Positions 1 to 14,284 of a stretch of DNA of 17,036 bases are shown piece by piece. Position numbers and translations under genes: made by a program. The stretch covers positions 1 to 17,036 of the forward strand of contig JAIPGM010000014.1 of NCBI GenBank assembly GCA_021735655.1, read 5' to 3'. Origin of the DNA: Candidatus Omnitrophota bacterium (GTDB taxonomy: Bacteria; Omnitrophota; Gorgyraeia; Duberdicusellales; 4484-171). The notes below the pieces were generated by a model. The model searched no databases. It saw only the letters and a list, made by a program, of their open reading frames with translations, and was not told the origin of the DNA. Position 1 is the stretch's first letter. Each line of letters begins with the position of its first letter.

Positions 1-91
1 GTATTTGAAGATTTTAGTAATTTTAAATTACAATCTGATAAAAAAGTTTACCATTTATCTCCAGCCTAATGTAGGGCTTGCGATAAATGGC

Positions 92-117
92 TTGATATTT
101 TGAGAGTAGAATATACT
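92..117 (+). promoter_or_regulatory. Weak candidate sigma70 promoter upstream of the first operon. TTGATA (92-97), a short 14-nt spacer, then TATACT (112-117). An AT-rich near-palindrome TAATTTtAAATTA lies at 18-30.
   Basis: Hexamers read directly from the sequence. The spacer is shorter than optimal, so this is weak. An AGGAG Shine-Dalgarno lies at 131-135, before the ATG at 141. Confidence 0.2.
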
Positions 118-140
118 GGACAATTAACATAGGAGATTCT

Positions 141-752
141 ATGAAACATTTTTATTTTTTCGGGTTGGCGGTTTTGTTGTTTTTAGGTCTGGCTTGCGAT
201 CGAGGTCCACAAGAGGTAGTTATCGACAGTTTTGAGAGTGAAATAAATCCAAAAACTGTTGATTTTGGTGCAAGTGAGAATTCGTCTATAAGCGTTGATT
301 TAGCCAAGGATATAAAAGTTTGTGGTGAGCAGTCGTTAAAAATGACTTATGATTTAAGGCCTTCGGGGTATATGTGGGTTGCTCGAGGTTATGGCTTAGA
401 CGTTGAAGGGGCTGCTCTTTGGGAAGTTAAACCTAAAGATATCAAATGGAAGAGATATAAATCAATTAGTGTTGCGATATACGGACGGAACTCGGGAGGC
501 GTTTTAGCTTTTGACTTAAAGGATAGTGGTGGAGAAATGTGGCGGACTATTATTGATGATGATTTTGAGGGTTGGAAAGGTGTAGTTTGTCCTTTCAAGA
601 ATTTCTTTCCTCGTAAAGATTGGCAACCGGACACTGCCAAGAAGAATGATAAATTAGACTTTCCGATTATGAGTTTTCAATTCGAGCCACGGCTTCCTGG
701 CATCGGCGTCTATTATTTTGACTGCATAAAGGCTGTGAAAGTAGAAAAATAA
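141..752 (+). CDS. Putative secreted lipoprotein with a beta-sandwich (CBM / galactose-binding-like) appearance. Function unknown.
   Basis: Hydrophobic N-terminal signal followed by a Cys (…FLGLAC|DRG), which is lipobox-like. AGGAG RBS 6 nt upstream. The mature part is rich in Gly, aromatic and acidic residues (GYMWVARGYG, DDDFEGWKG), reminiscent of carbohydrate-binding or CIA30-type beta-sandwich domains. The stop TAA is immediately followed by the ATG of the next gene. Confidence 0.55.
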   Translation: MKHFYFFGLAVLLFLGLACDRGPQEVVIDSFESEINPKTVDFGASENSSISVDLAKDIKVCGEQSLKMTYDLRPSGYMWVARGYGLDVEGAALWEVKPKDIKWKRYKSISVAIYGRNSGGVLAFDLKDSGGEMWRTIIDDDFEGWKGVVCPFKNFFPRKDWQPDTAKKNDKLDFPIMSFQFEPRLPGIGVYYFDCIKAVKVEK

Positions 753-1778
753 ATGTCCGGTAAAGTCATTGATTTATCAAAGCTAAGCGAAGAGGAATTA
801 CTTAAGGTTAAAATTCGTGACCTGGGCCTCTCAATAGAAGGCACTTGGTTAGAAGATTGTATTCAGCAGTTATATGGAGAACTTGATTCTCAAGGAATCA
901 AGTTCAAACCACCTTGCTACTTAGCCGATGAATGGCTTGCTCCTGATGAAGAGCCAATAATTGGAATACCTTTTTTTTTAGCCCATCCGACGCTTATTAA
1001 GCTAGAAAGGAAAATGATGCTTGATGTCGAAGGTGGTACAAAAGCCTGGTGTATGAAGTTACTTCGTCATGAAACTGGCCATGCTTTAAATTATGCCTAC
1101 AAGCTTTATCGTCGGAAAAACTGGCAAAAGATATTTGGAAAATTTTCCAAGGAGTACGCTGATACTTATCGTTTTCGTCCTTATAGCAAGAATTTCGTTC
1201 GGCATTTGGAAAATCATTATGCTCAATATCATCCTGATGAGGATTTTTCGGAAACTTTTGCTGTCTGGCTTACGCCGGGGCTTAATTGGCAACAACAGTA
1301 TAAGGGTTGGCGGGTGATAAGTAAACTTCATTATGTCGATAAGATTATTAATGAAGTAAAAGATAAAGAGCCATTGGTGGAAAAGGGTAGTCGTTATTGG
1401 GAAGCTAGACGCATGCGCACGACTTTGAAGAGTTTTTATAAGAAAAAACGTCGTTCCTACGCAGAGGATTTTCCTGATTTTCACGATTCTAACTTAAGAC
1501 GAATATTTACCTTACCGGAACCGGAAAGCAAACCTTTGTCTTCGGCGGCAGCAATTTTAAAAAAGTACCGCAAAGAAATATTGAATAATGTAGCTCGTTG
1601 GACCGGAGAAAGAAAATATATTATTGGAGACCTTATTGATACTTTGATTCAGCGATCTAGGGAACTTAAATTGGTGGTTGTTGATCAGGAATCGCTGGCG
1701 GTACTTAAAATTTCTACCTATATTACGACTTTGGTGATGAACTATCTTTATACTGGAGGCTTTAGTAAGGAAAGATGA
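753..1778 (+). CDS. HExxH zincin-like putative metallopeptidase; family uncertain.
   Basis: Canonical HExxH (H-E-T-G-H, aa 106-110, nt 1068-1082) inside a helix-like context (LLRHETGHALNYAYKL). A possible third ligand (Glu/His) sits downstream (HYAQYHPDEDFSETFAVW). Start abuts the upstream stop (TAA-ATG), and the 3' end overlaps the next gene by 4 nt (ATGA). Confidence 0.6.
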   Translation: MSGKVIDLSKLSEEELLKVKIRDLGLSIEGTWLEDCIQQLYGELDSQGIKFKPPCYLADEWLAPDEEPIIGIPFFLAHPTLIKLERKMMLDVEGGTKAWCMKLLRHETGHALNYAYKLYRRKNWQKIFGKFSKEYADTYRFRPYSKNFVRHLENHYAQYHPDEDFSETFAVWLTPGLNWQQQYKGWRVISKLHYVDKIINEVKDKEPLVEKGSRYWEARRMRTTLKSFYKKKRRSYAEDFPDFHDSNLRRIFTLPEPESKPLSSAAAILKKYRKEILNNVARWTGERKYIIGDLIDTLIQRSRELKLVVVDQESLAVLKISTYITTLVMNYLYTGGFSKER

Positions 1779-2794
1779 AAAAACTAAGGGTTCTTTTGCT
1801 TTTTGATAGTCCAGTTTCGAGAATGCGCGGTTATGACTTTAAAGAGGAATTTAAGGATGTTGATTGGGATACCGAGCGCAGCACTTATGAAGTTTTAACT
1901 AAAGCGGGACACGAGGTAAGGATCTTAGGTCTTTATAATAATATTAATATACTTCTTGAAGAGATTGCCGAAATCAAACCGGACATAATTTTCAATATGG
2001 CTGAAGTGTTTAATCAAAAGTCATACCTAGATAAGAATGTTGCCGGAGTTCTTGAGATGCTAGATATTCCTTATACCGGGGCATCTTTAACTACTTTGGC
2101 TATTTGCGGCGATAAAGCTTTATGTAAAAAGATACTTAGTTTTCATAGAATTAAAGTTCCCCAGTTTTATACTTTCTATCGTCACCGGCGGATCTGGCTT
2201 CCTAAGAGACTTCGTTTACCATTAATTGTTAAACCGCTCAGTGAAGAAGCTTCTCGAGGGATTTCTCAAGCTTCAATCGTCGACAATGAGGAGGCGATGA
2301 TTGAGAGAGTTAAGTTTATTCATGATAGTATGAAGAATGACGCCATAGTTGAAGAATACATCGAAGGTCGGGAGCTTTATGTTAGTGCAATTGGTGATAA
2401 GCGAATTAAGATTTTACCTATGCGTGAGATGAAGTTTGGTAGCCTCGGTGAAGATGAGCCGCGGATCGCTACCTATAAGGCAAAGTGGGATTATAAATAT
2501 CGAAAAAAGTGGGAAATTAAAAATATGTTTGCCGGAAGGCTACCTAATGGCTCAACCGAGAAGATAAATGAAGTTTGCAAGCGTGCCTTTAGAGCTTTAA
2601 ATTTGGAGTGTTACGCCCGTTTTGACATTCGTTTAACAAACGATTCAAAAATATATATTCTTGAAGTTAATGCTAACCCTTCTTTAGACCCTGATGATGA
2701 ATTGGCCCAGTCAGCAGAAAAGGGTGGATTAACTTACGATAAGCTTATTCAAAAAATATTGATATTGGGGCTTAAGAGAGGTGGAAATAATTAA
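1775..2794 (+). CDS. ATP-grasp enzyme of the D-Ala-D-Ala ligase / RimK-like superfamily (amidoligase).
   Basis: Collinear with the Ddl fold throughout. RVLLLFD at the N-terminus; DIPYTGASLTTLAICGDKALCKKIL in the central domain; PLIVKPLSEEASRGIS (P-loop-like); EEYIEGRELYVSAIGD; an omega-loop-like KAKWDYKY; and the C-terminal Mg/ATP motif ARFDIRLTNDSKIYILEVNANPSL. It lacks the HG..GEDG block I expect in genuine Ddl. Confidence 0.85.
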   Translation: MKKLRVLLLFDSPVSRMRGYDFKEEFKDVDWDTERSTYEVLTKAGHEVRILGLYNNINILLEEIAEIKPDIIFNMAEVFNQKSYLDKNVAGVLEMLDIPYTGASLTTLAICGDKALCKKILSFHRIKVPQFYTFYRHRRIWLPKRLRLPLIVKPLSEEASRGISQASIVDNEEAMIERVKFIHDSMKNDAIVEEYIEGRELYVSAIGDKRIKILPMREMKFGSLGEDEPRIATYKAKWDYKYRKKWEIKNMFAGRLPNGSTEKINEVCKRAFRALNLECYARFDIRLTNDSKIYILEVNANPSLDPDDELAQSAEKGGLTYDKLIQKILILGLKRGGNN

Positions 2795-2796
2795 TT

Positions 2797-3054
2797 ATGG
2801 GTGCAGAGATTTTTGTAGCTCGTTGTTATGATGTTGGAGGAGTAGGTTTGGTAATCAATGGCTGGGTCCAGTCAGGTGAGATTAGGGAAGGATCAGTCGG
2901 TAGAACCTATAAAGGAAAAAGATTTACTTTGGTAAAGATTGAAAAAGAAGGTAAGCAAATTCCTAAGGCTGTTGAGAAAGATAAGATTAATCTTTTTGTT
3001 AAACATGTTAACCGCACTGAGGTGAAGCCGGGTGAGACTGTTTATTTTGAGTAG
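2797..3054 (+). CDS. Small (85 aa) stand-alone beta-barrel protein resembling EF-Tu domain 2 (translation-protein beta-barrel). It ends in -VYFE.
   Basis: The whole length matches EF-Tu D2: VGGVGLVINGWVQSGEIREGSVG aligns with GTVVTGRVERGIIKVGEEV, and the C-terminal KINLFVKHVNRTEVKPGETV aligns with [21 protein letters not shown]. Starts 2 nt after the ATP-grasp stop. Family placement is by eye, so confidence is moderate. Confidence 0.5.
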   Translation: MGAEIFVARCYDVGGVGLVINGWVQSGEIREGSVGRTYKGKRFTLVKIEKEGKQIPKAVEKDKINLFVKHVNRTEVKPGETVYFE

Positions 3055-3063
3055 GTTTTAGTC

Positions 3064-3633
3064 TTGCAGAGATCAACTAAGATGAAAGATTTACTTAATC
3101 CTAGTCAGAGAAGTTATCTTCTTTCTTTAGTTAGAGATACTATTCAACACTATCTAAGGACAAAAGAACCCTTAGAGCCCAAGACGGAAGACTCTTTGCT
3201 AAAAGATGTGCGCGGCGCTTTTGTTACTTTGCACCAAGGAGGTAGGCTAAGGGGTTGCATTGGTAGTATAGTTGCAACTAAGCCTCTTTATTTAGAGATA
3301 AGGGATATGGCTATTGCCGCAAGTACCCAAGATTCGAGATTTTCTCCGGTGAGTGAAGGAGAGCTGGCCGACATAAGAATAGAGATATCAGTTTTGTCGC
3401 CGTTTAAAAAAATAGTTAATTCTGACGAAATCATAGTTGGCAAGCATGGAGTTTTAGTGAAGCAGGGGTATAAAAGTGGAGTTTATCTACCACAAGTAGC
3501 TAAAGAGACCGGATGGGGTAAGGAAGAATTTATGAATAGTCTTTGTAGGGATAAGGCTGGCATCTCAGTTGATTCTTGGAAGAGGGGTGAGTGCGAAATC
3601 TATATTTTTAGTGCAGAAGTATTCGGAGAGTAG
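3064..3633 (+). CDS. AMMECR1-domain protein.
   Basis: Signature GAFVTLHQGGRLRGCIGS and downstream GKHGVLV / GVYLPQV blocks typical of AMMECR1. The annotated start is TTG at 3064; an in-frame ATG at 3082 (MKDLL…) is an alternative start. Confidence 0.8.
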   Translation: MQRSTKMKDLLNPSQRSYLLSLVRDTIQHYLRTKEPLEPKTEDSLLKDVRGAFVTLHQGGRLRGCIGSIVATKPLYLEIRDMAIAASTQDSRFSPVSEGELADIRIEISVLSPFKKIVNSDEIIVGKHGVLVKQGYKSGVYLPQVAKETGWGKEEFMNSLCRDKAGISVDSWKRGECEIYIFSAEVFGE

Positions 3634-3639
3634 TTAAAA

Positions 3640-4395
3640 ATGTCTAAAACTGTAAAAAATTTAATTATTGCCAATGTTTCAGTTTTTCTGCTTAGCTCTA
3701 TTTGGCAAGAGTTTCCGATCGGGCTGTTAGCTATGGTTCCGAGATTGGTCTTTTCAAAGTTAATGATTTGGCAGCTAGTTACCTATATGTTTGTGCATCT
3801 TGATTTGTGGCATTTGGTGATGAATATGCTGATGCTTTGGTTTTTTGGACCAGCAATCGAGGCAGCTTGGGGCCAGAAGCGATTTTTAATTTATTATTTT
3901 TTTACTGGTATCGGCGCAGCTTTATGCAGTGTTATTTTTTCCTTTAATTCACCGATAATCGGAGCCTCGGGTGCAATATTTGGAATATTGGTTGCTTACG
4001 CCATGCTTTATCCTGATAATATGATTTTGTTTTTTTTCTTTGTTCCGATGAAGATGAAACATGCTGTTTTTGTCTTAGCCGGAATAAATCTTTTGGGGGC
4101 AATTTCAGCTTCTGGCAGTGGCATTGCTTACATAGCTCATTTAGGCGGTGGTCTTTTTGGTTACCTTTACTTAAAAAACGAAACTTTACGCCATCGCCTT
4201 CTATCTTTAGACTTTGAGAAGATCAAATCATGGTTTAATAAGCCATCGGCAAAACCGACAAAGTCTACTAAACCCAATAAGCCTAAAACCTTTGATGAAC
4301 GGGTTGATGAGATTCTTGATAAGATATCCAAGAAAGGAATGGCTAGCCTTACTAAGGAGGAGATAGATATCCTTGATCGACGTAGTCGTTCTTAA
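3640..4395 (+). CDS. Rhomboid-family intramembrane serine protease with a C-terminal Pro/Lys-rich linker and a SHOCT-like tail.
   Basis: Multiple TM helices. Catalytic GxSG (GASGAIFGIL) and a His in AHLGGGLFG sit in the last TM helices. The tail KPSAKPTKSTKPNKPK followed by ERVDEILDKISKKGMASLTKEEIDILD fits the L-x-L-x3-G-x-[IL]-T-x-EE-[FI] SHOCT pattern. Confidence 0.85.
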   Translation: MSKTVKNLIIANVSVFLLSSIWQEFPIGLLAMVPRLVFSKLMIWQLVTYMFVHLDLWHLVMNMLMLWFFGPAIEAAWGQKRFLIYYFFTGIGAALCSVIFSFNSPIIGASGAIFGILVAYAMLYPDNMILFFFFVPMKMKHAVFVLAGINLLGAISASGSGIAYIAHLGGGLFGYLYLKNETLRHRLLSLDFEKIKSWFNKPSAKPTKSTKPNKPKTFDERVDEILDKISKKGMASLTKEEIDILDRRSRS

Positions 4396-4437
4396 CCCGC
4401 CATTTTGTTAGTTTTTCCTAGAAACTTACTGCTGAGC

Positions 4438-4466
4438 TTGACAAACCAAGATAAATAGGCTATACT
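4438..4466 (+). promoter_or_regulatory. Near-consensus sigma70 promoter: TTGACA (4438-4443), 17 nt spacer, TATACT (4461-4466).
   Basis: Read directly from the sequence. It lies in the only sizeable intergenic gap (4396-4512), about 47 nt upstream of the MarR ATG. An AGGAGG Shine-Dalgarno is at 4501-4506. Confidence 0.6.
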
Positions 4467-4473
4467 TTGGTTG

Positions 4474-4495
4474 ATTAATAGTTCACATTATTAAT
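4474..4495 (+). promoter_or_regulatory. Inverted repeat ATTAATA-N8-TATTAAT between the -10 element and the RBS; candidate MarR operator.
   Basis: Perfect 7-bp arms read from the sequence. Position relative to the -10/+1 region is typical of MarR autoregulatory sites. The AT-rich context makes chance palindromes more likely. Confidence 0.35.
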
Positions 4496-4512
4496 ATTTT
4501 AGGAGGTTAATT

Positions 4513-4974
4513 ATGCCTAAAGAAAGTCAAATAAAACAATTTTCTCAAGAGCTTACCGAAAGTATATCTTATATCCAGCGAATGGCCCGAATATTGCTAA
4601 GAGAGCGTTCCGATGCATTAATTCAGGGAAAAGTAACCATGCCCCAGTATTTGAGTCTCGAGTTGCTCAGTAATCATGGCGTTCTAAAGATGAAAGATAT
4701 TGCCAAAGCTTTAAATATTAGTCTTCCAGCGGCAACTGGCTTGGTGAATCGTTTGGTCAAAATGAAGTTAGTTGAGCGGGTTTATGATCAAGAAGACCGC
4801 CGGGTAATATTTGTTGAGCTCACCAGTGAAGGGAAAAAAACTACTGATGAAACTAAGTTAGCCCGGAGAAAAATTATTGAGGAGATGTTTGGCGGTATTA
4901 CCGATGAAGAAAGGGAAATTTATATTAGAATTATTCGCAAGGTAAAGAGTAATTTAAATGAAAAAGCTAAGTAA
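4513..4974 (+). CDS. MarR-family winged-helix transcriptional regulator.
   Basis: The wHTH core (TMPQYLSLELLSNHGVLKMKDIAKALNISLPAATGLVNRLVKMKLVERVYDQEDRRVIFVELTSEGKK) matches the MarR recognition helix and wing pattern. Size is 153 aa. The 3' end overlaps the next gene by 17 nt. Confidence 0.85.
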   Translation: MPKESQIKQFSQELTESISYIQRMARILLRERSDALIQGKVTMPQYLSLELLSNHGVLKMKDIAKALNISLPAATGLVNRLVKMKLVERVYDQEDRRVIFVELTSEGKKTTDETKLARRKIIEEMFGGITDEEREIYIRIIRKVKSNLNEKAK

Positions 4975-6439
4975 AAGTAAAAACATTAGTTTATTTTTAA
5001 TTCTAGTGGCAGGATTTTTTTTAACTTTTAAAGGTTTCACTGAAGACCTATTGCCTTTGGAATTGTCTTTAGAAGAGGTAACCGAGATTGCTTTGGAAAA
5101 TTCTTTGGATATTCAGATTGCTAAGTTTGATACCTATATTAGTAGAACCTCTAAAGATGAGGCTGAATCAATATTTGATACTATTTTTAGCGCTGAAGCT
5201 AGCTATAATCGAAATCGAAAAGAAACGGCCAGTTCTTTGGCCGGAACCGATACTCGAGAGACTATTTTTTCATTGGGTCTTGAGAAAAAACTACCTACCG
5301 GAACCACGCTTGCTCTAGATGCAATCAACACCAAGACTAAAACTAATAGTTCTTTTACTACCTTAAATCCTTATACTGAAGCTGGGCTTGAATTTTCAGT
5401 AACTCAGGAGTTAGGTAGGAATTTCTTTGGCTTAGCTGATCGGGCTAAGATTAAAATTACTAAAATCGATATTGAAAATTCTGAGTTTGTGTCTTTGGAT
5501 GATATTGAACAGTTTCTCTATGCTGTTCAGCGTTCCTATTGGAATTTAGCACTTCGCGAAGAAGAGCTTTTAATCGCTAAAGATATGCTGTCGGAAGCAG
5601 AAAAACTTTATGAAATTTACAAGGAAAAGAAAGAGCTAGGCTTGGTCGAGGAGAGTGAATTTTTAGCAATTGAGGCTTTACTTAAGGCCCGTCAAAGTAG
5701 CATTAATGTAGCTCAATTAGCTCGGGAAACGGCAAAGAATGATTTATTATTTTTAATTAACCGTGGTGATTTTCAGCAAAATCTTATTCCTCGGGATAGT
5801 CTAGATATCGAGGTTTTTGAGACAGATTTATATCAAGCTTTGAATCGGGCAGTTGATTCGCGTCGTGACTATAAGCGGATTAAAAATGAGTTAGAGAAAA
5901 ACAAGATTGATTTGGTGGTTAAAAAGAATGCCCTTTGGCCGCAAATAGATTTTGAGGCTACTTTTACTCGCAATAATATTGATACCGGACGCAGTCAGGC
6001 TTGGGGGGATATTTTTAGCGATGGCGGCGAAGATGTTTTTTTTAAAGTAAGTTTTGAGGTACCGCTTGAAAAAAGAGCGGCTCGTTCTCAAGTTCGCAAG
6101 GCCGACTTAGAAAAATCTCGGTTTTTACTCAAGTTTAAGCGAATTGAACGTCTATTGTTACAGGAAATCAACGATAAGGTTAATCAGGTAAATACGATGC
6201 AGAATCAAGTCAAACTATTTAAGCAGACGGTTAAAATTCATCAGCGCAAACTTAAGAGTCAAATTGAGCGTTTAAGTTTGGGGCGCTCTGATTCAGATAC
6301 GCTTATTCGTTACGAGGAAGACTTATTAAAAGCACGTTTATCTTTAGCGGAGTATTTATTTAATTATCGTACTAGTTTGATCGAGCTGGATTTAAAACAG
6401 AACATTTTACTAGATAAGTATTGGCAGGAGCCACTTTAG
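4958..6439 (+). CDS. TolC-family outer-membrane efflux protein (outer membrane factor, OMF).
   Basis: N-terminal signal peptide, then the classic OMF opening (LSLEEVTEIALENSLDIQIAKFD…). Two-fold internal repeat of beta-strand and coiled-coil segments. 493 aa. Confidence 0.85.
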   Translation: MKKLSKSKNISLFLILVAGFFLTFKGFTEDLLPLELSLEEVTEIALENSLDIQIAKFDTYISRTSKDEAESIFDTIFSAEASYNRNRKETASSLAGTDTRETIFSLGLEKKLPTGTTLALDAINTKTKTNSSFTTLNPYTEAGLEFSVTQELGRNFFGLADRAKIKITKIDIENSEFVSLDDIEQFLYAVQRSYWNLALREEELLIAKDMLSEAEKLYEIYKEKKELGLVEESEFLAIEALLKARQSSINVAQLARETAKNDLLFLINRGDFQQNLIPRDSLDIEVFETDLYQALNRAVDSRRDYKRIKNELEKNKIDLVVKKNALWPQIDFEATFTRNNIDTGRSQAWGDIFSDGGEDVFFKVSFEVPLEKRAARSQVRKADLEKSRFLLKFKRIERLLLQEINDKVNQVNTMQNQVKLFKQTVKIHQRKLKSQIERLSLGRSDSDTLIRYEEDLLKARLSLAEYLFNYRTSLIELDLKQNILLDKYWQEPL

Positions 6440-6451
6440 GAGAGCAAAGCG

Positions 6452-9400
6452 ATGAGTATTGTTGAATTTTCAGTAAAGCGTTCACTTTTAGTAAACCTTA
6501 TTTCAGTTTTTATCTTAGTCGCTGGGTTTTTGTCGGTTTTTGTGTTTAAGATTAGAAGAGAGGCTTTTCCTGAAGTTTCTTATGACATTGTCATTGTTAG
6601 TACGGTTTATCCGGGGGCAGCCCCCGAGGAGGTAGAAAAGCTAGTTACCATACCGATTGAAAAGGAGTTAAAGGGAGTAGACGGAATAGAGAAGATGAAG
6701 TCTACCTCCCTAGAGAACTCTTCAAACATTTCAATCGAGATAAGCCAAGATGTAAAAAACAAGCGCAAGGTTATTACCGATATTCAAAAGGCGGTTGATC
6801 GAGTAAGAGATTTACCGGCCGGAGTAGAGGATGACCCAGTAGTAAGTGAGGTTACTTCTGGAGAGTTTCCGGTAGTTCAGGTAGCCTTAAGTGGTGATAT
6901 GCCTGAGAAAGAGCTTCAAGAGTATGCTGAAAATCTAGAAGATATCCTAGAAGATATTCCTGGTGTTTCAAAGATTTCTCGGATTGGTTATCGAGATCGA
7001 GAAGTCTGGGTTGAGGTTGATCCACAAAAGCTAAGCTCTTTTCATTTAAGCCTTGAAGAGGTAATGGAAGCTCTGGCTAGGAAAAACCGAAGTATTCCCG
7101 GAGGAAAAATCAGAGGAGTTCAAGAGTTCAGCATTCGGACAACCGGTGAATTTTATACTAAAGAAGAAATTGAAGATGTGGTTATCCGGGCTAATGAGAC
7201 TGGGAATTGGCTAAGAGTAAAAGATGTGGCTGAAGTAAAGTTTTCTTTTGAGGATGAAAACACAATTAATAAAAGTTTTGGTACTCGGTCGATAGACCTT
7301 ACTGTAATCAAGCGGGCTAGCGGTGACGCGATTGAAATAGTTGAAAAAGTCAAGCTTAAGACTGAAAAATTTTTAACTCAGACAAATGATTCTCGTTTGG
7401 AAACTTCTTACATTAATGACATATCTTTTTATATTAAACGTCGGCTAGGTACGCTTAAAAATAACGGAATAGTCGGTATTGTTTTAGTTTGTTTTGTTTT
7501 GATGATATTTTTGCAATTTCGGATTGCTTTGATAACTGCTATTGGACTTCCGATTGCTTTTTGTGCAACTTTGGCGGTAATGAGCTTTGTTGGTTTGAGT
7601 ATAAACCTAGTTACCATGTTTGGTTTGATTGTGGTTTTGGGTATGTTAGTTGATGATGGCATTATTGTTTCTGAGAATTGTTCACGCTATCTAGAAGAGG
7701 GCCATTCACCTTATCAGGCGGCTATTTTAGGAACCCAGGAAGTAATAAAACCAGTTACTACTACAATAATTACGACCATTGCTGCTTTTAGTCCGCTTCT
7801 TTTTATGGGGGGGATGATGGGGAAGTTTATCTGGGGGATACCTCTGGTAGTTATTATTGCTCTTTGTGCTTCTTTATTTGAAGCCTTAGTTATTTTGCCT
7901 TCGCATTTTGCCGATTTTATTCGTCGGGATAAAAATTTTAAATCGCGTAAAGAACTCCCTTGGTTTAAGAAATTGGTCGTTGTCTATACTCGATTAGTGA
8001 CTAAGGCTTTAAATCGGCGTTGGTGGGTATTGGGAGGATTATTTTTAGTTTTAATTTTAACTGTTGGTTTAGTTATGCACATGCCAAAAATTCTTTTTGC
8101 TTCTGAAGAAGGAATAGAAGAGTTTACTGTCCGGGCCGAAGCCCCAGTCGGAACTAATCTTTATTCCACTGATAAGTTAATTAAACCGATAGAGGAAGAA
8201 GTCGCTAAGATGCCTAAAAATCAGGTCGAAGCCTACACTACTCAAGTTGGTTCAATCGGTGATAGTTGGCATTTTGATCCTTATGGTAAGAGCGGTAGCC
8301 ATGTAGTTCAGGTGACAGTTCACTTAACGCCTTATAAGCAGCGCAAAAGAAAGGTTAGTCAGATCATCGAAGACCTACGAACTAAAATTGGTGATGTTGA
8401 GGGGTTTGATCGGGTTTACTTTGAGAAACCTCAGGCTGGACCTCCGGTCGGTGCACCGGTTGCGGTTGAAATTCGCGGCGAGAGCTTTGAAGTTTTAAAC
8501 AAAATCGCTAATCAGATAAATGAATTTTTAAAAACCATTCCCGGTATTTCCGATATAGTATCTGATTATGAGGTTGGCAGAGGAGAAATTCGGGTTATTG
8601 TTGATGAAGAAAAAGCTGCCCGGACCTATTTGTCGGTCGGTGAAGTGGCTTCAAGTATTCGCAATGCTTTTCGCGGCGGGGTGGCTACTTCAATTAAGCC
8701 GGTTAAGGCTGAAGAAGAGATTGATGTTTTAGTGAGATTTCCCGATGACTATCGTACTAAGCGAGAATCCTTTGAAAAAATATTAGTTCCTAATAAGTTT
8801 GGTAATTTAATCCCTTTAGCTAAGATAGCTAGATTTGAGGATGGTGTATCGGTAGCCAGGGTTCAGCATCTCGACGGAAAAAGAGTGATATCGGTCAAAG
8901 CTAACGTTGATAACCAGAACATTACTTCTAATGAAGCTAATAAGCTGATTAAGGATAAATTTAAGGATGTTTCAATTAATTTTCCCGGATATAGTATACA
9001 GTTTGGCGGAGAGCAAAGGGAAAATGTCCGTTCAATGAAAGATTTCGCTAATGCTTTTATTCTGGCCTTGTTTTTAATTTTTTTAATTTTAGCCGCTAAC
9101 TTTAATTCATTGGTTCAGCCGTTAATCGTTATGATGGCGATTCCTTTTGGTTTTATCGGAGTCATCTGGGCTTTTTTCTTCCATGGTTTACCGATCGGTT
9201 TTTTTATGTTTATGGGTGCAGTAGGTTTAACTGGAATAGTAGTTAATGATTCTATAGTTTTGGTTGAGTTTGTTAATAATTTAAGAAGAAAAGGGGTCGA
9301 TCGAAGACATTCATTAATTCAAGCCGGTCAGTTACGCTTGCGGCCGGTTTTACTTACTACGATTACTACTGCTCTTGGTTTGACCCCGACAGCCTATGGT

Positions 9401-9574
9401 ATTTGGGGCGGAGACCCATTTTTAAAGCCAATGGCTTTGACTATTGTTTGGGGTATAGTTTGTGCAACCGTTCTAACTTTGGTTGTCTTGCCTTGTATTT
9501 ATGCTATTATAGATGATATTACTTTAAAGCTGGCTGGCCATACGACAGTTAAGAAAAGCAATATCACTATATGA
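6452..9574 (+). CDS. RND-superfamily efflux permease (AcrB-like, HAE1-type architecture, 12 TM).
   Basis: 1040 aa. TM1 followed by a large periplasmic domain (VSTVYPGAAPEEVEKLVTIPIEKEL). The TM4 proton-relay pair is present (MLVDDGIIVSEN; DD at nt 7652-7657). There is a second large periplasmic loop, and an Arg in TM11 (LRLRPVLLTT). No adaptor gene is present either side. Confidence 0.93.
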   Translation: MSIVEFSVKRSLLVNLISVFILVAGFLSVFVFKIRREAFPEVSYDIVIVSTVYPGAAPEEVEKLVTIPIEKELKGVDGIEKMKSTSLENSSNISIEISQDVKNKRKVITDIQKAVDRVRDLPAGVEDDPVVSEVTSGEFPVVQVALSGDMPEKELQEYAENLEDILEDIPGVSKISRIGYRDREVWVEVDPQKLSSFHLSLEEVMEALARKNRSIPGGKIRGVQEFSIRTTGEFYTKEEIEDVVIRANETGNWLRVKDVAEVKFSFEDENTINKSFGTRSIDLTVIKRASGDAIEIVEKVKLKTEKFLTQTNDSRLETSYINDISFYIKRRLGTLKNNGIVGIVLVCFVLMIFLQFRIALITAIGLPIAFCATLAVMSFVGLSINLVTMFGLIVVLGMLVDDGIIVSENCSRYLEEGHSPYQAAILGTQEVIKPVTTTIITTIAAFSPLLFMGGMMGKFIWGIPLVVIIALCASLFEALVILPSHFADFIRRDKNFKSRKELPWFKKLVVVYTRLVTKALNRRWWVLGGLFLVLILTVGLVMHMPKILFASEEGIEEFTVRAEAPVGTNLYSTDKLIKPIEEEVAKMPKNQVEAYTTQVGSIGDSWHFDPYGKSGSHVVQVTVHLTPYKQRKRKVSQIIEDLRTKIGDVEGFDRVYFEKPQAGPPVGAPVAVEIRGESFEVLNKIANQINEFLKTIPGISDIVSDYEVGRGEIRVIVDEEKAARTYLSVGEVASSIRNAFRGGVATSIKPVKAEEEIDVLVRFPDDYRTKRESFEKILVPNKFGNLIPLAKIARFEDGVSVARVQHLDGKRVISVKANVDNQNITSNEANKLIKDKFKDVSINFPGYSIQFGGEQRENVRSMKDFANAFILALFLIFLILAANFNSLVQPLIVMMAIPFGFIGVIWAFFFHGLPIGFFMFMGAVGLTGIVVNDSIVLVEFVNNLRRKGVDRRHSLIQAGQLRLRPVLLTTITTALGLTPTAYGIWGGDPFLKPMALTIVWGIVCATVLTLVVLPCIYAIIDDITLKLAGHTTVKKSNITI

Positions 9575-11463
9575 TTTTTTTAAATAACCTTTCCAAAAGT
9601 TACGGTTCGAGGATTCTTTTTGAGAATTTTTCCTTAACCATTGATCGCGGTGAACGAATCGGCTTGGTTGGTCCCAACGGAGCTGGCAAATCTACACTTT
9701 TCAATATTATTCTTAAGCAAAACGAAAGCTCTTCGGGAACTATTCAGATAAATAAAGGTGTTCGTATTGGTTATCTTGCTCAAGAGGTAACCTTTAATTC
9801 AGAAGCTACAGTTTTGTCAGAGCTAACTGCTGGTGATGAGTCGATTAAGAAGCTCAAAAAAGAAAAGGATGCTTTAGAGAAAGAGAACAAAGCTGCCGGA
9901 GCTCGCTACGGGGCAGTACTCCACGATTTAGAGTTTTTTGGTTATTTTGATTTAGAGCATCGAGCTAAAAAAATATTAAGCGGCTTAGGCTTTGCGAATT
10001 CAGATTTTAATCGGCCGGTTAATGAAATGAGCGGTGGTTTTAAGATGCGAGTTTTATTGGCTAAGCTGTTGCTGTATCCTTATGATATTTTACTTTTGGA
10101 TGAACCTACCAACTTTCTAGATTTAGAAGCAGCTATTTGGTTTAAAGATTATTTATTAAAATTTAAGGGAACTTTTGTGATGATTTCTCACGATCGGGAT
10201 TTTCTTACCGAGGTAACCAGCGACACTTTAGTTTTAGAAAACGGAGCAATCACTAAGATCAAGGGAAATTATGATGATTATGAAAAGATGTGTAATGAGC
10301 AGCGAGAGCGCCTGCTTAAGCAGTTTAAGGAGCAGGATAAAAAGTGTAAACAATTGAAAGTTTTTATTAATCGGTTTCATGCTCAGCCGAATAAGGCTTC
10401 CCAGGTTAGATCTAAGAAACGGATGTTAGAGAAGATGGATATCATTAACGTACCGTTAGATCGCAAGGAAAGTATCCGCAAGTTTAATTTTCCAAAGGCC
10501 ACACGCAGTGGCTACCGGGCGATAGAGCTTAAAAGTATTTCTAAAGCTTACGGTGATATCTCGGTGTATCAAGATTTTGATTTTGAACTAACTCGAGGAG
10601 AAAAGTCAGTTTTTATCGGCCATAATGGAGCCGGCAAATCGACCCTCTTAAAGATTTTGGCCGGAGTTATTGATATTGATTCCGGATCGCGGATTCTTGG
10701 CACCAATATTGATATTGGTTATTTTTCACAAACCCGTCTTGATGTTCTAACTCCCGATAATACTGTTTTTGAAGAAGCCTATTCAGCTTCCGGAGGCAGG
10801 CTGACTAATGATGAGATTAGAACGGTTTTGGCCGCTTTTTTATTTACCGGAGACGATGTTGAGAAGAAGGTTAGCATTCTTTCCGGAGGAGAGAAGAGTC
10901 GTTTGATTTTAGCAAAACTTTTAATTAACCCTCCTAACTTTTTGCTTTTGGATGAGCCGACAACTCATCTTGATGTTGATGCAGTTGAGGCATTAATCAG
11001 AGCTTTAAAAGAATACGACGGAACACTTGTTTTTATAAGTCATGATATCCATTTTGTTCGCTCGGTAGCCAATATGGTTTTTGAAATCAATAAGGGGCGA
11101 GTAAGGAAATTTCCCGGCAGCTTTGATTACTATTGGCAAACTGCCAGGCATAAAGATGTTGTTGAGCTTAAACGTAAAAAAATAAAATCGAAATCGTCCC
11201 CAGTAAAAGAAATGTCAGAAAAAGATAAGGAAAAGAAACAAAAAAAAGAAAACGAGAAAATTTCCAAGAAGATAAAAGCCCTTAGGAAAGAAAAAGAAGA
11301 CTTAGAGCTGGAATATAATGTGAAGTGGCGGGTTGTTTCTAATCCCCGCAGCTATCATCGTAAAGAGGTAGCTTCTGAATATAGCCAACGCTTGAAAGAA
11401 CTGAAGTGCCAAATAGCGAAAAATGATCAAGAGATAAAGGACCTCAAAAAGCTGTTTAAATAG
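9571..11463 (+). CDS. ABC-F family ATPase: two ABC domains, an inter-domain linker, and a Lys/Glu-rich C-terminal coiled-coil (Uup/EttA-like architecture).
   Basis: Two Walker A motifs (GPNGAGKST, GHNGAGKST) and two signature motifs (MSGGFKMRV, LSGGEKSRL). Walker B motifs LLLDEPTNFLD and LLLDEPTTHLD. No transmembrane domain. The C-terminal KRKKIKSKS…KEKKQKKENEKISKKIKALRKEKEDLE tail is present. The ATG overlaps the RND stop (ATGA). Confidence 0.9.
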   Translation: MIFLNNLSKSYGSRILFENFSLTIDRGERIGLVGPNGAGKSTLFNIILKQNESSSGTIQINKGVRIGYLAQEVTFNSEATVLSELTAGDESIKKLKKEKDALEKENKAAGARYGAVLHDLEFFGYFDLEHRAKKILSGLGFANSDFNRPVNEMSGGFKMRVLLAKLLLYPYDILLLDEPTNFLDLEAAIWFKDYLLKFKGTFVMISHDRDFLTEVTSDTLVLENGAITKIKGNYDDYEKMCNEQRERLLKQFKEQDKKCKQLKVFINRFHAQPNKASQVRSKKRMLEKMDIINVPLDRKESIRKFNFPKATRSGYRAIELKSISKAYGDISVYQDFDFELTRGEKSVFIGHNGAGKSTLLKILAGVIDIDSGSRILGTNIDIGYFSQTRLDVLTPDNTVFEEAYSASGGRLTNDEIRTVLAAFLFTGDDVEKKVSILSGGEKSRLILAKLLINPPNFLLLDEPTTHLDVDAVEALIRALKEYDGTLVFISHDIHFVRSVANMVFEINKGRVRKFPGSFDYYWQTARHKDVVELKRKKIKSKSSPVKEMSEKDKEKKQKKENEKISKKIKALRKEKEDLELEYNVKWRVVSNPRSYHRKEVASEYSQRLKELKCQIAKNDQEIKDLKKLFK

Positions 11464-11487
11464 GCCATTTTTTGCTATAATCATTAG

Positions 11488-12270
11488 ATGTTTGTAATTA
11501 AGATAAAGCCTGAAAGAAAAATTGATATTATTGTTCGGATCGGCCTGTATATAAGCCTAGGTTTACTTATTGCTTCTTTTGTTCAAAAAGGCGTACTTCC
11601 CAAAAAGAAAGCAATACATCCTGATTTGTATCAAGAGCCGATTCAGCGTGAGACCTACACTCCTTCTTTTGAAGCAAAAGCTGAGGGTTCAATTTACGAT
11701 ATAAATCCGAGTCACCACTATAAACTTAATGGTTTGGTTGTTTCTCAACACGACTCAACCGCTTGGTGGGATTATTATCATAAAAAATGGGGTGATTCAT
11801 TAAATCTAAAAGATGTTTGTGTTATTTGGGGCGATAACCTTGAGAATGAAACCTATCGAAGAATGCGTTTTAGAAATGGTAATTGGACTTGCTATGTGTC
11901 AGTAAATCATAAAACAGCTGATCAAGATTGGGCACAGTTTAATATGGCGGCTTTATCCAATAATCACCTTTTGTCGGATAAAGCTGAAATCAACCAGGCT
12001 TTACGCAAGGTGCATGTTGGTGATCAGATTTATCTCAAAGGATACTTGGCATCCTATCATCGTCAAGGAAGCCATTTTTCTCGTGACTCAAGTATCTCGC
12101 GAACCGATGAAGGTGATGGCGCTTGTGAAACAATTTACCTTACTGATTTTAAGGTTCTTAAAAGCGCTAATTTTTTTTGGTGGTCAGTTTATGGAGTATC
12201 TAAATATTTAGTCTTGATATTATTCATTTTTTTAGTTTTCCTTCGAATTCAAGCCCCTTTGAGCAGGTAA
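11488..12270 (+). CDS. Hypothetical membrane protein of unknown function, with a TM helix at each end.
   Basis: Predicted TM helices at aa ~15-35 and ~225-250, flanking a ~190-aa hydrophilic domain rich in Trp, His and Tyr (WWDYYHKKWGDS, NGNWTCYVSVNH). I see no recognisable family motif. The start has a weak RBS. Confidence 0.5.
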   Translation: MFVIKIKPERKIDIIVRIGLYISLGLLIASFVQKGVLPKKKAIHPDLYQEPIQRETYTPSFEAKAEGSIYDINPSHHYKLNGLVVSQHDSTAWWDYYHKKWGDSLNLKDVCVIWGDNLENETYRRMRFRNGNWTCYVSVNHKTADQDWAQFNMAALSNNHLLSDKAEINQALRKVHVGDQIYLKGYLASYHRQGSHFSRDSSISRTDEGDGACETIYLTDFKVLKSANFFWWSVYGVSKYLVLILFIFLVFLRIQAPLSR

Positions 12271-12279
12271 AAAATTATC

Positions 12280-13401
12280 ATGATTACCAAACCATTATTA
12301 TTAAAAGTTTATGAAGCAGCCAGCATGCAGCGCTGGAATGATCAGATTAAGGCGGTGGAGCTTACTGAGCTCGATAAGCAAGCGCATAAGATGATCATTG
12401 CCTATTGCTTAGGCAAGTGTCAGGAGAAGTACAAGACGGCCGGTTTTAACTGGATCGAGATTATCGAAGCCGGAATATTTGAATATTTACAGCGAATAGT
12501 TCTTACTGATTTAAAGCCACCCTTATTTCATCGGATAAAGGAAGATCAGGATAAATACCGGCGTCTTAATGAATGGGTTTATGAAAAAATAGAAAAGGTT
12601 ATTCGGCCGCTTGGTGAAGGATTTTGCCAGCGCTTTAATTCCTATCTTCTAGATCCTAAGCGGAATGTGAACCGAAGGATTATAAGTGCTGCTCACTTTT
12701 ATGCAACTAAATGGGAGTTTGATATAATTGAACGGGCCAATCCTCAAGGTTATTTGATTGAAGAGATCAGGGAAGATATCCGTACCAAACAGGAACGTTA
12801 TCACGATTTAGAAAGTATGCAGGATTTGTTAAATTCACCCGGTCTTAAGAGTTTTGTGAATATTTGCGGCCAGCTTCGTTTTCAGATTCGCTGGAGTCAT
12901 CTTCCGAGAGTTCCTAAGACCTCGGTATTGGGCCATATGCTGATTGTCGCTATGATTGCCTATCTTATGTCTGAAAATTCCGGTGCCGATTCTGAGCGTT
13001 GCTTGAACAATTATTTAACCGGGCTGTTTCATGATTTACCTGAGGTTTTAACTCGGGATGTAATTAATCCGGTAAAAAGATCGGTTGAAGGTTTGGATGA
13101 CTTAATTAAAGAGTATGAGCGCCAGGAAATGGAAAGAAAAATATATAAGTTAATTCCTACCGATTGGCATTCTCAGATGAGGAATTTTACCGAAGAAGAG
13201 TTTACTAACACTGCTTCCCGCGATGGAGAGCTTATTAAGGCAGTTGATGAGTTGGCTGCCTTTCTGGAGGCCTATTTATCTTTGGCTAATGGCATTCAGA
13301 GCCAAGATTTTACAACAGCTAAGAAATCTCTGCCGCGTAAGTATAAGTCTAAAATAATTGCCGGAGTTAATTTCGCTAAGATTTATAAAGAGTTTTGTTG
13401 A
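12280..13401 (+). CDS. HD-domain phosphohydrolase of the YfbR-like (5'-deoxynucleotidase, HD_3) type, carrying a duplicated, degenerate N-terminal HD-like domain.
   Basis: C-terminal half: IRWSHLPRVPKTSVLGHMLIVAMIAY (His219) and LTGLFHDLPEVLTRDVINPVK (H251-D252, nt 13030-13035), then KAVDELAAFLEAY. This matches YfbR's RW…SEHSLQVAMVAHA / YHDASEVLTGDLPTPVK / KQADALCAYLK. The N-terminal half repeats the same pattern (QRWNDQ…, RIVLTDLKPPL) but has E-Y where the H-D dyad should be (nt 12481-12486). Confidence 0.75.
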   Translation: MITKPLLLKVYEAASMQRWNDQIKAVELTELDKQAHKMIIAYCLGKCQEKYKTAGFNWIEIIEAGIFEYLQRIVLTDLKPPLFHRIKEDQDKYRRLNEWVYEKIEKVIRPLGEGFCQRFNSYLLDPKRNVNRRIISAAHFYATKWEFDIIERANPQGYLIEEIREDIRTKQERYHDLESMQDLLNSPGLKSFVNICGQLRFQIRWSHLPRVPKTSVLGHMLIVAMIAYLMSENSGADSERCLNNYLTGLFHDLPEVLTRDVINPVKRSVEGLDDLIKEYERQEMERKIYKLIPTDWHSQMRNFTEEEFTNTASRDGELIKAVDELAAFLEAYLSLANGIQSQDFTTAKKSLPRKYKSKIIAGVNFAKIYKEFC

Positions 13402-14278: not shown

Positions 14279-14284
14279 AAGACG

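What the first reader, a model, noticed from the sequence alone, without database searches (positions are those of the whole stretch)
141..3054. Translationally coupled cassette: lipoprotein, HExxH protein, Ddl-like ATP-grasp and an EF-Tu-D2-like mini-protein, a candidate peptide-ligation/cleavage system
Four consecutive genes are joined by TAAATG, by a 4-nt ATGA overlap and by a 2-nt gap, so they are almost certainly co-translated. The pairing of an ATP-grasp amidoligase with a zinc-peptidase-like protein recalls known tag/untag or peptide-modification pairs: RimK with S6 and its peptidase, TTL with tubulin and its carboxypeptidases, cyanophycin synthetase with cyanophycinase. Here the ligase is a Ddl-type enzyme without Ddl hallmarks, the protease is of an unassigned HExxH type, and the partners are a lipoprotein and an 85-aa beta-barrel ending in an acidic C-terminus (-YFE). 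My hypothesis is that the ATP-grasp ligates amino acids onto the C-terminal Glu of the mini-protein or onto a small metabolite, and that the HExxH enzyme reverses or processes the product. I do not recognise this exact four-gene arrangement as a described system.
Basis: partly seen in the sequence, partly recalled or inferred. Interest (0 to 1): 0.75.

Follow-up and report, generated by a model that had tools for sequence, protein, structure and literature searches.

The report
Zinc peptidase–ATP-grasp ligase gene pair
Only the two middle genes of the proposed four-gene cassette, a lethal-factor-like zinc peptidase and a D-Ala-D-Ala-ligase-like ATP-grasp enzyme, form a conserved unit; this uncharacterised pair recurs across several bacterial phyla, while the lipoprotein and the 85-residue mini-protein are lineage-specific neighbours.

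Summary
The four ORFs, their junctions (TAAATG, ATGA overlap, 2-nt gap), the HExxH motif, the Ddl-like ATP-grasp and the EF-Tu-domain-2-like mini-protein ending in -YFE are all in the sequence. Tight packing is not special here. All 17 genes of this Omnitrophota contig lie on one strand, mostly 25 nt or less apart.

Comparative data split the cassette:
- HExxH followed by ATP-grasp is adjacent in 77/77 assessable Omnitrophota-type genome loci, 72/72 diverse metagenome loci and 4/5 hand-picked distant relatives (Planctomycetota, Burkholderiales-like and others). The flanking genes are otherwise unrelated.
- The lipoprotein is present in 24/76 loci, the mini-protein in 15/66 and the full quartet in 8/63. 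All three are essentially absent outside Omnitrophota.

The HExxH protein is a cytoplasmic gluzincin of the anthrax-LF/PPEP/MtfA type, with H106, E107, H110 and E167 invariant. The ATP-grasp keeps every Ddl catalytic residue but always changes S150 to A/G, Y216 to W/F and L282 to E/D. It scores far below the Ddl cut-offs.

Best reading: a self-contained two-enzyme module that cleaves and forms an amide bond on an unknown substrate.

The parts
753..1778 (+). Core gene 1: a 341-aa cytoplasmic gluzincin. It has an N-terminal LF/PPEP/MtfA-like catalytic domain of about 190 residues and a C-terminal helical domain (residues 190-335). HExxH is residues 106-110 (nt 1068-1082). The putative third zinc ligand E167 is at nt 1251-1253, inside the invariant motif HPDEDFxETF.
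1775..2794 (+). Core gene 2: a 339-aa Ddl-like ATP-grasp ligase, overlapping gene 1 by ATGA. Its family-specific positions are A159 (DdlB S150), K237-W238 (nt 2483-2488; DdlB K215-Y216) and D308-E309 (nt 2696-2701; DdlB S281-L282).
   Evidence: Dala_Dala_lig_C matches at 4e-25. The best NCBIfam Ddl model gives 134 bits against a cut-off of 243. The closest PDB entries are Ddl enzymes, at 25-31% identity to E. coli DdlB. In 136 family members the equivalents of K97, K144, E180, E187, K215, R255, D257, E270 and N272 are fully conserved (two partial sequences have alignment gaps at E270 and N272). S150 is A/G in 134, Y216 is W/F in 135, and L282 is E/D in all 134 ungapped sequences. The gene lies directly downstream of the HExxH gene in 77/77 and 72/72 loci.
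2797..3054 (+). Lineage-specific accessory or neighbour: an 85-aa stand-alone beta-barrel like domain II of EF-1alpha/EF-Tu. It is not part of the conserved core.
   Evidence: Its family profile matches eEF1A domain II at E 2.4e-6. NCBIfam gives EF-1alpha 2.8e-5, SelB 1.3e-4 and Pbp11 4e-4. Only 14 clusters exist among 5.8 billion proteins. It is present in 15/66 assessable Omnitrophota loci, always directly after the ATP-grasp, and its distribution on the tree is patchy. Its C-terminus is not conserved; only F84 is invariant.
141..752 (+). Lineage-specific neighbour: a 203-aa exported lipoprotein with a CBM_11-like domain. It is not part of the conserved core.
   Evidence: CBM_11 matches at 7.6e-16, above the cut-off. 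The signal peptide and LGLAC are visible in the sequence. It lies upstream of the pair in 24/76 Omnitrophota-type loci; in the diverse metagenome set it is seen only in the Omnitrophota-like locus L098. It is frameshifted in L004/L005.

Best explanation
The region holds a conserved bicistronic module (753-2794), flanked on each side by a clade-specific gene within a compact run of unrelated housekeeping genes.

The first gene of the module encodes a cytoplasmic zinc metallopeptidase of the anthrax-lethal-factor / Pro-Pro-endopeptidase / MtfA type, carrying an extra C-terminal helical domain. The second encodes an ATP-grasp ligase that is a sister family of D-Ala-D-Ala ligase.

Shown:
- The ligase keeps the complete machinery for ATP binding, Mg2+ binding and acyl-phosphate formation.
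- It lacks the Glu-Ser-Tyr triad of Ddl. At the position where Ddl uses the backbone of Leu282 to hold the carboxylate of D-Ala2, it always has an acidic residue.

Inferred:
- The ligase activates a carboxylate and couples it to a nucleophile that is not a free alpha-amino acid bound as in Ddl. The acidic residue suggests a cationic or carboxylate-free amine, such as a peptide N-terminus, a Lys/Orn-type side chain or a polyamine.
- The zincin works on the same molecule. It either trims a peptide to create the ligase's substrate or hydrolyses the ligase's product (a make/break cycle).
- The substrate is encoded elsewhere or is a metabolite, because no third gene is conserved next to the pair.

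The lipoprotein is an unrelated exported neighbour. The 85-aa EF-1alpha-domain-II-like protein is at most an optional, Omnitrophota-specific add-on.
For: Pair conservation:
- The ATP-grasp lies directly downstream of the HExxH gene in 77/77 assessable loci from GTDB species genomes.
- The same holds in 72/72 assessable diverse metagenome loci.
- It holds in 4/5 distant representatives whose neighbours are entirely different: ECH/TRAP, an ABC transporter, a GluRS-like gene, and SDF/OMP.
- In Omnitrophota the estimated junctions are mostly -4 or -1 nt.
- Pairwise distances of the two proteins correlate at r = 0.94 over 136 loci.
- No other family recurs in more than 5-6 of about 77 diverse loci.

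Family spread:
- The HExxH profile finds 2526 clusters at 50% identity, 759 of them at E <= 1e-30.
- Sources name members as 'putative zinc-binding metallopeptidase' from Planctomycetota, Polarisedimenticolia and Burkholderiales MAGs, and as 'hypothetical protein' from Pyrinomonadaceae MAGs.

Ligase: catalytic residues conserved in 136/136, with specificity positions changed; Ddl HMM scores of 104-138 bits against a cut-off of 243.

Accessory status of the lipoprotein and mini-protein.
Against: - No substrate or product is known, and nothing here distinguishes a small-molecule target from a protein target.
- The 'cationic nucleophile' idea rests on an alignment to E. coli DdlB, whose sequence I recalled from memory. 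It was checked only against its published residue numbers.
- Exceptions exist in both directions. L095 has the HExxH gene without an adjacent ATP-grasp. L004/L005 have the ATP-grasp and mini-protein with the HExxH gene deleted.
- The mini-protein stays glued to the 3' end of the ATP-grasp even where AMMECR1 is not downstream (L046, L098). A functional tie in that clade is therefore not excluded.
- I could not check whether Omnitrophota genomes also carry a canonical ddl.
Confidence: 0.6

Rival explanations
1. All four genes form one system. The ATP-grasp adds amino acids to the C-terminal Glu of the 85-aa mini-protein, in the manner of LysW/LysX or RimK/S6, and the HExxH enzyme removes them. 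The lipoprotein is a fourth partner.
For: The junctions in the window are tight. Where the mini-protein exists, it is always the gene directly after the ATP-grasp, in 15-16 loci with gaps mostly between -11 and 13 nt. That includes loci lacking the downstream AMMECR1 gene.
Against: - The terminal residue is Glu only in the window. In other copies it is D, G, S or I, or the protein ends at Phe.
- The mini-protein is absent from 51/66 assessable Omnitrophota loci and from every diverse locus except the Omnitrophota-like L098.
- The full quartet occurs in only 8/63 loci.
- The ligase is Ddl-like, not RimK/LysX-like (Pfam RimK 0.002, below its cut-off).
- The lipoprotein is exported, while both enzymes lack signal peptides.
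- Equally tight junctions link unrelated genes throughout the window.
Confidence: 0.04
2. The mini-protein is a clade-specific adaptor or client of the pair, though not through a C-terminal Glu. For example, it could be a binding module that recruits the pair to an aminoacyl-tRNA-like or translation-related target.
For: It is adjacent to the ATP-grasp over a fairly wide part of the Omnitrophota tree, including L046, L070 and L098. It resembles EF-1alpha domain II and the tRNA-binding protein Pbp11. RNA-modification genes (MnmA, RluA-type, U32) lie upstream of the pair in three Omnitrophota clades, and a GluRS-like gene does so in L094.
Against: It has been lost repeatedly while the pair is retained. 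No equivalent exists in other phyla. The RNA-modification theme is absent from 121 flanking genes in the diverse set, and it is a post-hoc observation in small genomes rich in housekeeping genes.
Confidence: 0.15
3. The ATP-grasp is simply the organism's peptidoglycan D-Ala-D-Ala (or D-Ala-D-X) ligase, and the zincin is a VanX-like dipeptidase partner or an unrelated neighbour.
For: Ddl enzymes are by far the closest characterised relatives. All catalytic residues are present. Ligase plus Zn dipeptidase is the logic of van operons (established knowledge). I could not show that a canonical ddl coexists in Omnitrophota.
Against: - Scores are about half the Ddl subfamily cut-off in all five members tested.
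- S150 and Y216 are never retained, and the L282 position is always acidic.
- PGAP names the protein only 'ATP-grasp domain-containing protein'.
- The gene is not in a mur/dcw context in the window.
- The module also occurs in a Burkholderiales-like MAG, Acidobacteriota and Planctomycetota. Those groups are expected to have an ordinary ddl (inference from general knowledge).
- The zincin is unrelated to VanX (M15).
Confidence: 0.08
4. The pair is a RiPP-like or peptide-maturation cassette whose precursor peptide is encoded nearby but differs between lineages.
For: Different small ORFs abut the pair in different clades. These are the 85-aa barrel in Omnitrophota, a roughly 50-aa ORF with a conserved core and a conserved [RK][AV]A C-terminus in 8 soil loci, and a 61-aa membrane peptide in 6 loci.
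Against: Most loci have no conserved small ORF. Graspetide ligases belong to a different ATP-grasp clade (established knowledge). No transporter or leader-type architecture recurs. Both proteins evolve slowly and appear vertically inherited, like housekeeping genes.
Confidence: 0.08

Closest known systems
D-alanine--D-alanine ligase family (DdlB, VanA/VanC types), and the VanA-VanX ligase plus zinc-dipeptidase gene pair
   Same: The ATP-grasp fold is the same, and Ddl enzymes are the best PDB and HMM matches. All ATP, Mg2+ and transition-state residues are conserved: the equivalents of K97, K144, E180, E187, K215, R255, D257, E270 and N272. As in van operons, the ligase gene is coupled to a zinc hydrolase gene.
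   Different: Scores are 104-138 bits against a cut-off of 243. S150 becomes A/G, Y216 becomes W/F and L282 becomes E/D. The N-terminal domain is not recognised by Dala_Dala_lig_N. The gene has no mur/dcw context. The partner hydrolase is an HExxH gluzincin, not an M15 VanX.
Anthrax lethal factor / Pro-Pro endopeptidases (MEROPS M34), MtfA (M90), and the Pfam 'Peptidase_Mx/Mx1' putative zincins (PDB 4l7a)
   Same: HExxH is followed by a downstream Glu in an E-x-F-x-E-x-F-type helix. These proteins are the top structural neighbours, and Pfam Peptidase_Mx gives a weak HMM match.
ATP-grasp tag/untag pairs: RimK-RimB on ribosomal protein S6, and TTL/TTLL with vasohibin/CCP on tubulin
   Same: The logic of an ATP-grasp amide ligase genetically or functionally paired with a peptidase that removes or prepares the modification.
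   Different: Those ligases are RimK/TTL-type. Here RimK scores 0.002 and TTL matches only a 35-residue stretch. No target protein with an acidic C-terminus is linked to this pair.
LysW/LysX/LysK amino-group carrier protein system
   Different: LysW has a strictly conserved acidic C-terminal tail and a zinc ribbon (established knowledge). The mini-protein here is an EF-1alpha-domain-II-like barrel with a variable C-terminus. LysX is RimK-like and LysK is M20, and neither is matched here.
Stand-alone EF-Tu domain-2-like proteins such as archaeal Pbp11
   Same: The mini-protein is a single small beta-barrel with the same type of profile match (Pbp11 4e-4, EF-1alpha 2.8e-5).
   Different: All matches are far below the family cut-offs. 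The protein is bacterial, restricted to part of Omnitrophota, and of untested function.

Membership tests
Bona fide D-Ala-D-Ala ligase (Ddl) | Scores above the curated NCBIfam Ddl cut-offs | tested here: not met
   The best model, NF002378, gives 134 bits against a cut-off of 243 for the window protein. Four distant partners score 104-138 bits.
Bona fide D-Ala-D-Ala ligase (Ddl) | ATP-grasp catalytic residues (DdlB K97, K144, E180, E187, K215, R255, D257, E270, N272) | tested here: met
   All nine are conserved in 136/136 family members, apart from alignment gaps in two partial sequences.
Bona fide D-Ala-D-Ala ligase (Ddl) | The E15-S150-Y216 triad and the S281/L282 D-Ala2 carboxylate site | tested here: not met
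   S150 is A/G in 134/136, Y216 is W/F in 135/136, and L282 is E/D in 134/134. The E15 equivalent is ambiguous; E34 is the invariant candidate. The DdlB reference sequence came from memory and was checked only against its known residue numbering.
Bona fide D-Ala-D-Ala ligase (Ddl) | It is the organism's peptidoglycan ligase, meaning the only Ddl homologue or one located in a mur/dcw context | not testable with these tools
   No mur genes lie in the window.
Pfam Peptidase_Mx (PF15887) / gluzincin metallopeptidases | HMM match at the gathering threshold | tested here: inconclusive
   The window protein scores 25.3 bits against a cut-off of 27. The precomputed tables list PF15887 for most homologues, unmarked for the HExxH genes of L091, L092, L094 and L096 and marked 'weak' in the other loci where it is listed.
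Pfam Peptidase_Mx (PF15887) / gluzincin metallopeptidases | HExxH plus a third zinc ligand (Glu) on a downstream helix, in a zincin fold | tested here: met
   The C-termini are -YFE, -YFD, -YFG, -FFS, -SFI, or end at Phe (-HF, -SF, -FF).
   Present in 15/66 Omnitrophota-type loci and 1/52 diverse loci.
   Pfam RimK scores 0.002 (18 bits, cut-off 21), against Dala_Dala_lig_C at 4e-25.
EF-Tu/EF-1alpha domain 2 fold (mini-protein) | A full-length profile match to domain II | tested here: met
   The family profile matches eEF1A residues 251-325 at E 2.4e-6. Seven of 14 members hit GTP_EFTU_D2, the best at 3.6e-4 and all below the gathering score. No structure was predicted.
CBM_11 (lipoprotein) | Pfam match above the gathering score | tested here: met
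   59.1 bits against a cut-off of 27. Carbohydrate binding was not tested.
Anti-phage defence or phage-derived system | A match to PADLOC or PHROGs models | tested here: not met
   No PADLOC hits, and only one marginal PHROG hit of unknown function.

The most novel reading that the evidence does not exclude
The zincin/ATP-grasp pair is a previously unrecognised cytoplasmic system, conserved across at least four phyla, that edits the terminus of a peptide or protein by trimming and re-ligating, or by tagging and untagging. Its clients would be encoded elsewhere in most genomes. In some lineages they would be captured next to it: the EF-1alpha-domain-II-like 85-aa protein in Omnitrophota, and the roughly 50-aa protein with a conserved [RK][AV]A C-terminus in a soil clade.
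Probability: 0.15. Interest if true: 0.75.

Novelty: new variant of a known kind. Interest (0 to 1): 0.45.

Why it matters
ATP-grasp ligases paired with peptidases underlie several important biochemical cycles, including vancomycin resistance, S6 and tubulin tagging, the LysW carrier pathway and cyanophycin turnover. Here a Ddl sister family with a systematically altered second-substrate site is locked to an uncharacterised lethal-factor-like zincin in about 150 independent loci. These loci come from Omnitrophota, Planctomycetota, Acidobacteriota and a Burkholderiales-like lineage, and they include genomes of only 1.3-1.5 Mb.

That pattern suggests a basic, still unnamed piece of cytoplasmic amide-bond chemistry. 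It also gives a defined two-gene construct that can be expressed and assayed. More immediately, it argues against annotating these ligases as D-Ala-D-Ala ligases, and it shows that translational coupling in compact genomes is weak evidence for a shared function.

Tried and rejected
- The afdb50 fold library was unavailable.
- Sequence and profile searches of the HExxH family against the PDB found nothing significant.
- PADLOC and PHROGs gave no defence or phage link.
- A Burkholderiales-type HExxH protein had no tblastn match in plasmids.
- Literature searches for PF15887, Peptidase_Mx, 'zinc-binding metallopeptidase' and Omnitrophota plus ATP-grasp or Ddl found nothing relevant. PMC4000134 concerns an unrelated M28-like protein. 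The Iyer et al. 2009 amidoligase survey is not held in the library.
- I looked for a conserved third gene around the pair by clustering and Pfam census of flanking ORFs. None was found in the diverse set. Only clade-limited neighbours appeared in Omnitrophota.
- I looked for a canonical ddl in the 176 loci held. The only DdlB-like hits are the pair's own ligase, so the question of coexistence stays open.
- Rfam found no RNA family in the window.
- A polyamine link was considered and not adopted. It rests on a spermine-synthase gene a few genes downstream in one Omnitrophota clade, a PotD-like ABC transporter in L093 and an Orn/Arg decarboxylase in L094. These are too few, are not adjacent, and do not recur in the census.

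Full report
**Source and observation**

The window is a 17,036-bp contig of a Candidatus Omnitrophica MAG. The ATP-grasp, HExxH and mini-protein sequences are each found at 100% identity in NCBI records from a contig of exactly that length.

The junctions read directly from the sequence:
- TAA|ATG at 750-755.
- An ATGA overlap at 1775-1778.
- TAA-TT-ATG at 2792-2799.

The first protein has a signal peptide with an LGLAC lipobox-like motif and a CBM_11 domain (7.6e-16). The second has HETGH at residues 106-110 and a sub-threshold Peptidase_Mx match. The third matches Dala_Dala_lig_C at 4e-25. The fourth ends -YFE and weakly matches EF-Tu domain 2. A profile of the mini-protein family matches domain II of eEF1A at E 2.4e-6.

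**Is the coupling informative?**

It is not informative by itself. Every ORF of at least 100 aa in the window is on the + strand. Successive gaps are 0, -4, 2, 9, 6, 117, -17, 12, -4, 24, 9, 25, 58, 11, 37 and 21 nt. The genes are a mix of unrelated functions: AMMECR1, rhomboid, MarR, a TolC-like protein, AcrB, ABC-F, an HD domain protein, MTHFR, AhpC and an HMGL-like protein.

The tight run that starts at 141 continues through AMMECR1 and the rhomboid gene to 4395. The only strong promoter-like site is at 4438-4466. Compactness is a property of this genome, not of the quartet.

**Comparative test of the quartet**

Homologues of the ATP-grasp and the HExxH protein are abundant and highly conserved in Omnitrophota, at 57-84% identity. 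The mini-protein has only 14 clusters among 5.8 billion proteins.

The first neighbourhoods already split the cassette. The HExxH and ATP-grasp genes were adjacent in 3/3, the lipoprotein was present in 1/3, and the mini-protein in 0/3.

A scan of one genome per GTDB species with the HExxH alignment found at least 589 relatives; I kept the best 80 loci. A metagenome scan with an alignment of distant, non-Omnitrophota members gave 80 more loci. The census is:

| Feature | Genome set | Metagenome set |
|---|---|---|
| ATP-grasp directly downstream of HExxH | 77/77 | 72/72 |
| Lipoprotein directly upstream | 24/76 | only the Omnitrophota-like L098 |
| Mini-protein directly after the ATP-grasp | 15/66 | 1/52 |
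| Full quartet | 8/63 | 1/47 |

Loci with the mini-protein or the lipoprotein in the second set are themselves Omnitrophota-like.

Five hand-picked distant representatives include a Planctomycetota MAG and a cluster containing Burkholderiales MAG proteins. Four of the five have the ATP-grasp downstream, amid completely different neighbours. One, L095, lacks it. Conversely, L004/L005 keep the ATP-grasp and the mini-protein but have lost the HExxH gene and carry a frameshifted lipoprotein gene.

Clustering and Pfam census of flanking ORFs found no third conserved gene in the diverse set. In that set the gene downstream of the pair is usually on the opposite strand. Pairwise distances of the two proteins correlate at r = 0.94 over 136 loci. 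The conserved unit is therefore a bicistronic pair.

**The mini-protein**

On a tree of the concatenated pair, the mini-protein is concentrated in the crown clade that contains the window. It shows repeated absences there and a few outliers elsewhere. When present, it is always the gene immediately after the ATP-grasp, even where AMMECR1 is not downstream (L046, L098).

Its C-terminus is not conserved. Among the 14 database homologues the ends are -YFE, -YFD, -YFG or a truncated -YF. Among the 16 locus copies most end in Phe (-HF, -SF, -FF), others in -FD, -FS or -FI, and only the window's copy ends in Glu. F84 is the invariant feature.

**The HExxH protein**

Profile search of 1.84 billion representatives found 2526 clusters, 759 of them at E <= 1e-30. 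The top 150 are mostly 330-360 aa and match the profile over nearly its full length. Among 107 full-length representatives of 32-56% identity to the window protein, HExxH is present in 106 and HPxEDFAETF in 98.

In an alignment of 100 sequences of 31-77% identity, H106, E107, H110, E167, D164 and Q158 are invariant. With that alignment AlphaFold2 gave pLDDT 94.1 and pTM 0.87.

Foldseek agrees, with 4l7a at probability 0.96, then lethal factor. The protein has no signal peptide. It is best described as a cytoplasmic LF/MtfA-type gluzincin with an additional C-terminal helical domain. Neither NCBIfam nor the searchable literature has an entry for it.

**The ATP-grasp**

Ddl enzymes are the closest solved and curated relatives. 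All five members tested score 104-138 bits against a subfamily cut-off of 243.

I mapped the family onto E. coli DdlB. That sequence came from memory, but it reproduces the published residue numbers. In 136 members the equivalents of K97, K144, E180, E187, K215, R255, D257, E270 and N272 are conserved in all aligned sequences. By contrast:
- S150 is Ala or Gly in 134.
- Y216 is Trp (112) or Phe (23), and never Tyr.
- The L282 position is Glu or Asp in all 134 ungapped sequences.

S281 is Asp in Omnitrophota and variable elsewhere.

The enzyme should therefore still form an acyl-phosphate and ligate it. However, the Glu-Ser-Tyr network and the D-Ala2 carboxylate site of Ddl are gone. An always-acidic residue at that site argues, by inference only, for a nucleophile without a nearby carboxylate, or for a cationic one.

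**Mechanistic reading**

Shown:
- The two genes are inherited and arranged as a unit across phyla.
- Both proteins have intact catalytic motifs.
- Both lack export signals.
- No conserved third gene accompanies them.

Inferred:
- The two enzymes act on the same amide. The zincin either prepares the substrate of the ligase or hydrolyses its product.
- The target is a metabolite or a protein encoded elsewhere.

I cannot decide between a small-molecule and a protein target. Ddl ancestry favours a small molecule. The zincin's relatives, its extra domain and the lineage-specific small ORFs favour a peptide or protein.

**Comparison with known systems**

- The closest in logic are VanA/VanX (a Ddl-type ligase plus a zinc dipeptidase), RimK/RimB and TTL/carboxypeptidases (tag and untag).
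- Membership in Ddl, RimK/LysX and LysW-type carriers fails on tested defining features, as set out in the membership table.
- The pairing of a Ddl sister family with a Peptidase_Mx-type zincin appears undescribed in the literature I could search. That search excludes most subscription journals and the 2009 amidoligase survey.

**Verdict**

The four-gene system and the mini-protein-acceptor mechanism are not supported. What remains is an uncharacterised two-gene peptidase/ligase module conserved across phyla. It is of moderate interest as a defined target for biochemistry.

Noticed in passing
L102 1068-1217; also L127, L135, L142, L145, L151, L157 and L160, about 100-150 nt upstream of the HExxH gene: A roughly 50-aa ORF lies on the same strand in 8 soil-metagenome loci. 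It has a conserved core, EP[IVM]GI[IV]ISxG...P.F.AY[VIM]W, and a conserved C-terminus, [RK][AV]A (RAA, KVA or KAA). It could be a clade-specific client or partner of the pair.
   Followed up: partly
L032 5810-5995; also L034, L036, L049, L080 and L097: A 61-aa hydrophobic ORF (MLAGFLLVLAGVLIAIFP...YYYKKVSRHFDNPFIDFIFRF) lies directly upstream of the HExxH gene in six loci.
   Followed up: no
L004/L005 3130-3972: In one abundant Omnitrophota lineage, seen in two independent assemblies and on 19 contigs, the HExxH gene is missing and the lipoprotein gene is split by a frameshift. The ATP-grasp and mini-protein remain intact.
   Followed up: partly
Upstream of the pair in L011-L090; L094 5216-6010: RNA-modification genes recur upstream of the pair in separate Omnitrophota clades: MnmA in 17-18 of 73 loci, peptidase U32 family in 5, and RluA-type pseudouridine synthase in 5. 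In an unrelated lineage a 264-aa GluRS-like (tRNA-synt_1c) gene overlaps the HExxH start. This theme does not appear in the diverse soil set.
   Followed up: partly
window 3064-3633, compared with L004-L010: The window has a stand-alone 189-aa AMMECR1 (AmmeMemoRadiSam protein A, 5.6e-52). Most close relatives carry a Memo-AMMECR1 fusion of about 485-500 aa at the same position. A DsbD-like gene, a 700-aa spermine-synthase-domain protein and a radical SAM gene lie further downstream in those relatives.
   Followed up: no
window 4513-11463: A MarR regulator, a TolC-like OEP (493 aa) and an AcrB-type RND pump (1040 aa) are followed by an ABC-F ATPase that overlaps AcrB by 4 nt. No periplasmic adaptor (MFP/HlyD) gene lies between OEP and AcrB. 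The best sigma-70-like promoter match in the first 4.6 kb, the only part scanned (TTGACA-17-TATACT, 4438-4466), precedes MarR.
   Followed up: no
window 1-17036: All predicted genes are on the + strand. GC skew is positive throughout (0.11-0.31 in 1-kb windows) at about 38% GC, consistent with a leading-strand segment of a compact genome.
   Followed up: no
window 11488-12270 and 14933-15286: Two ORFs, of 260 aa and 117 aa, have no Pfam match at 1e-5.
   Followed up: no
L031-L090 record titles: Many loci with 57-75% identity to the Omnitrophota HExxH protein come from MAGs labelled 'uncultured Planctomycetia', Brevinematales, Fibrobacterota, Bacteroidota or Auribacterota. These labels are probably automatic taxonomic assignments rather than real phylum-level spread.
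   Followed up: no
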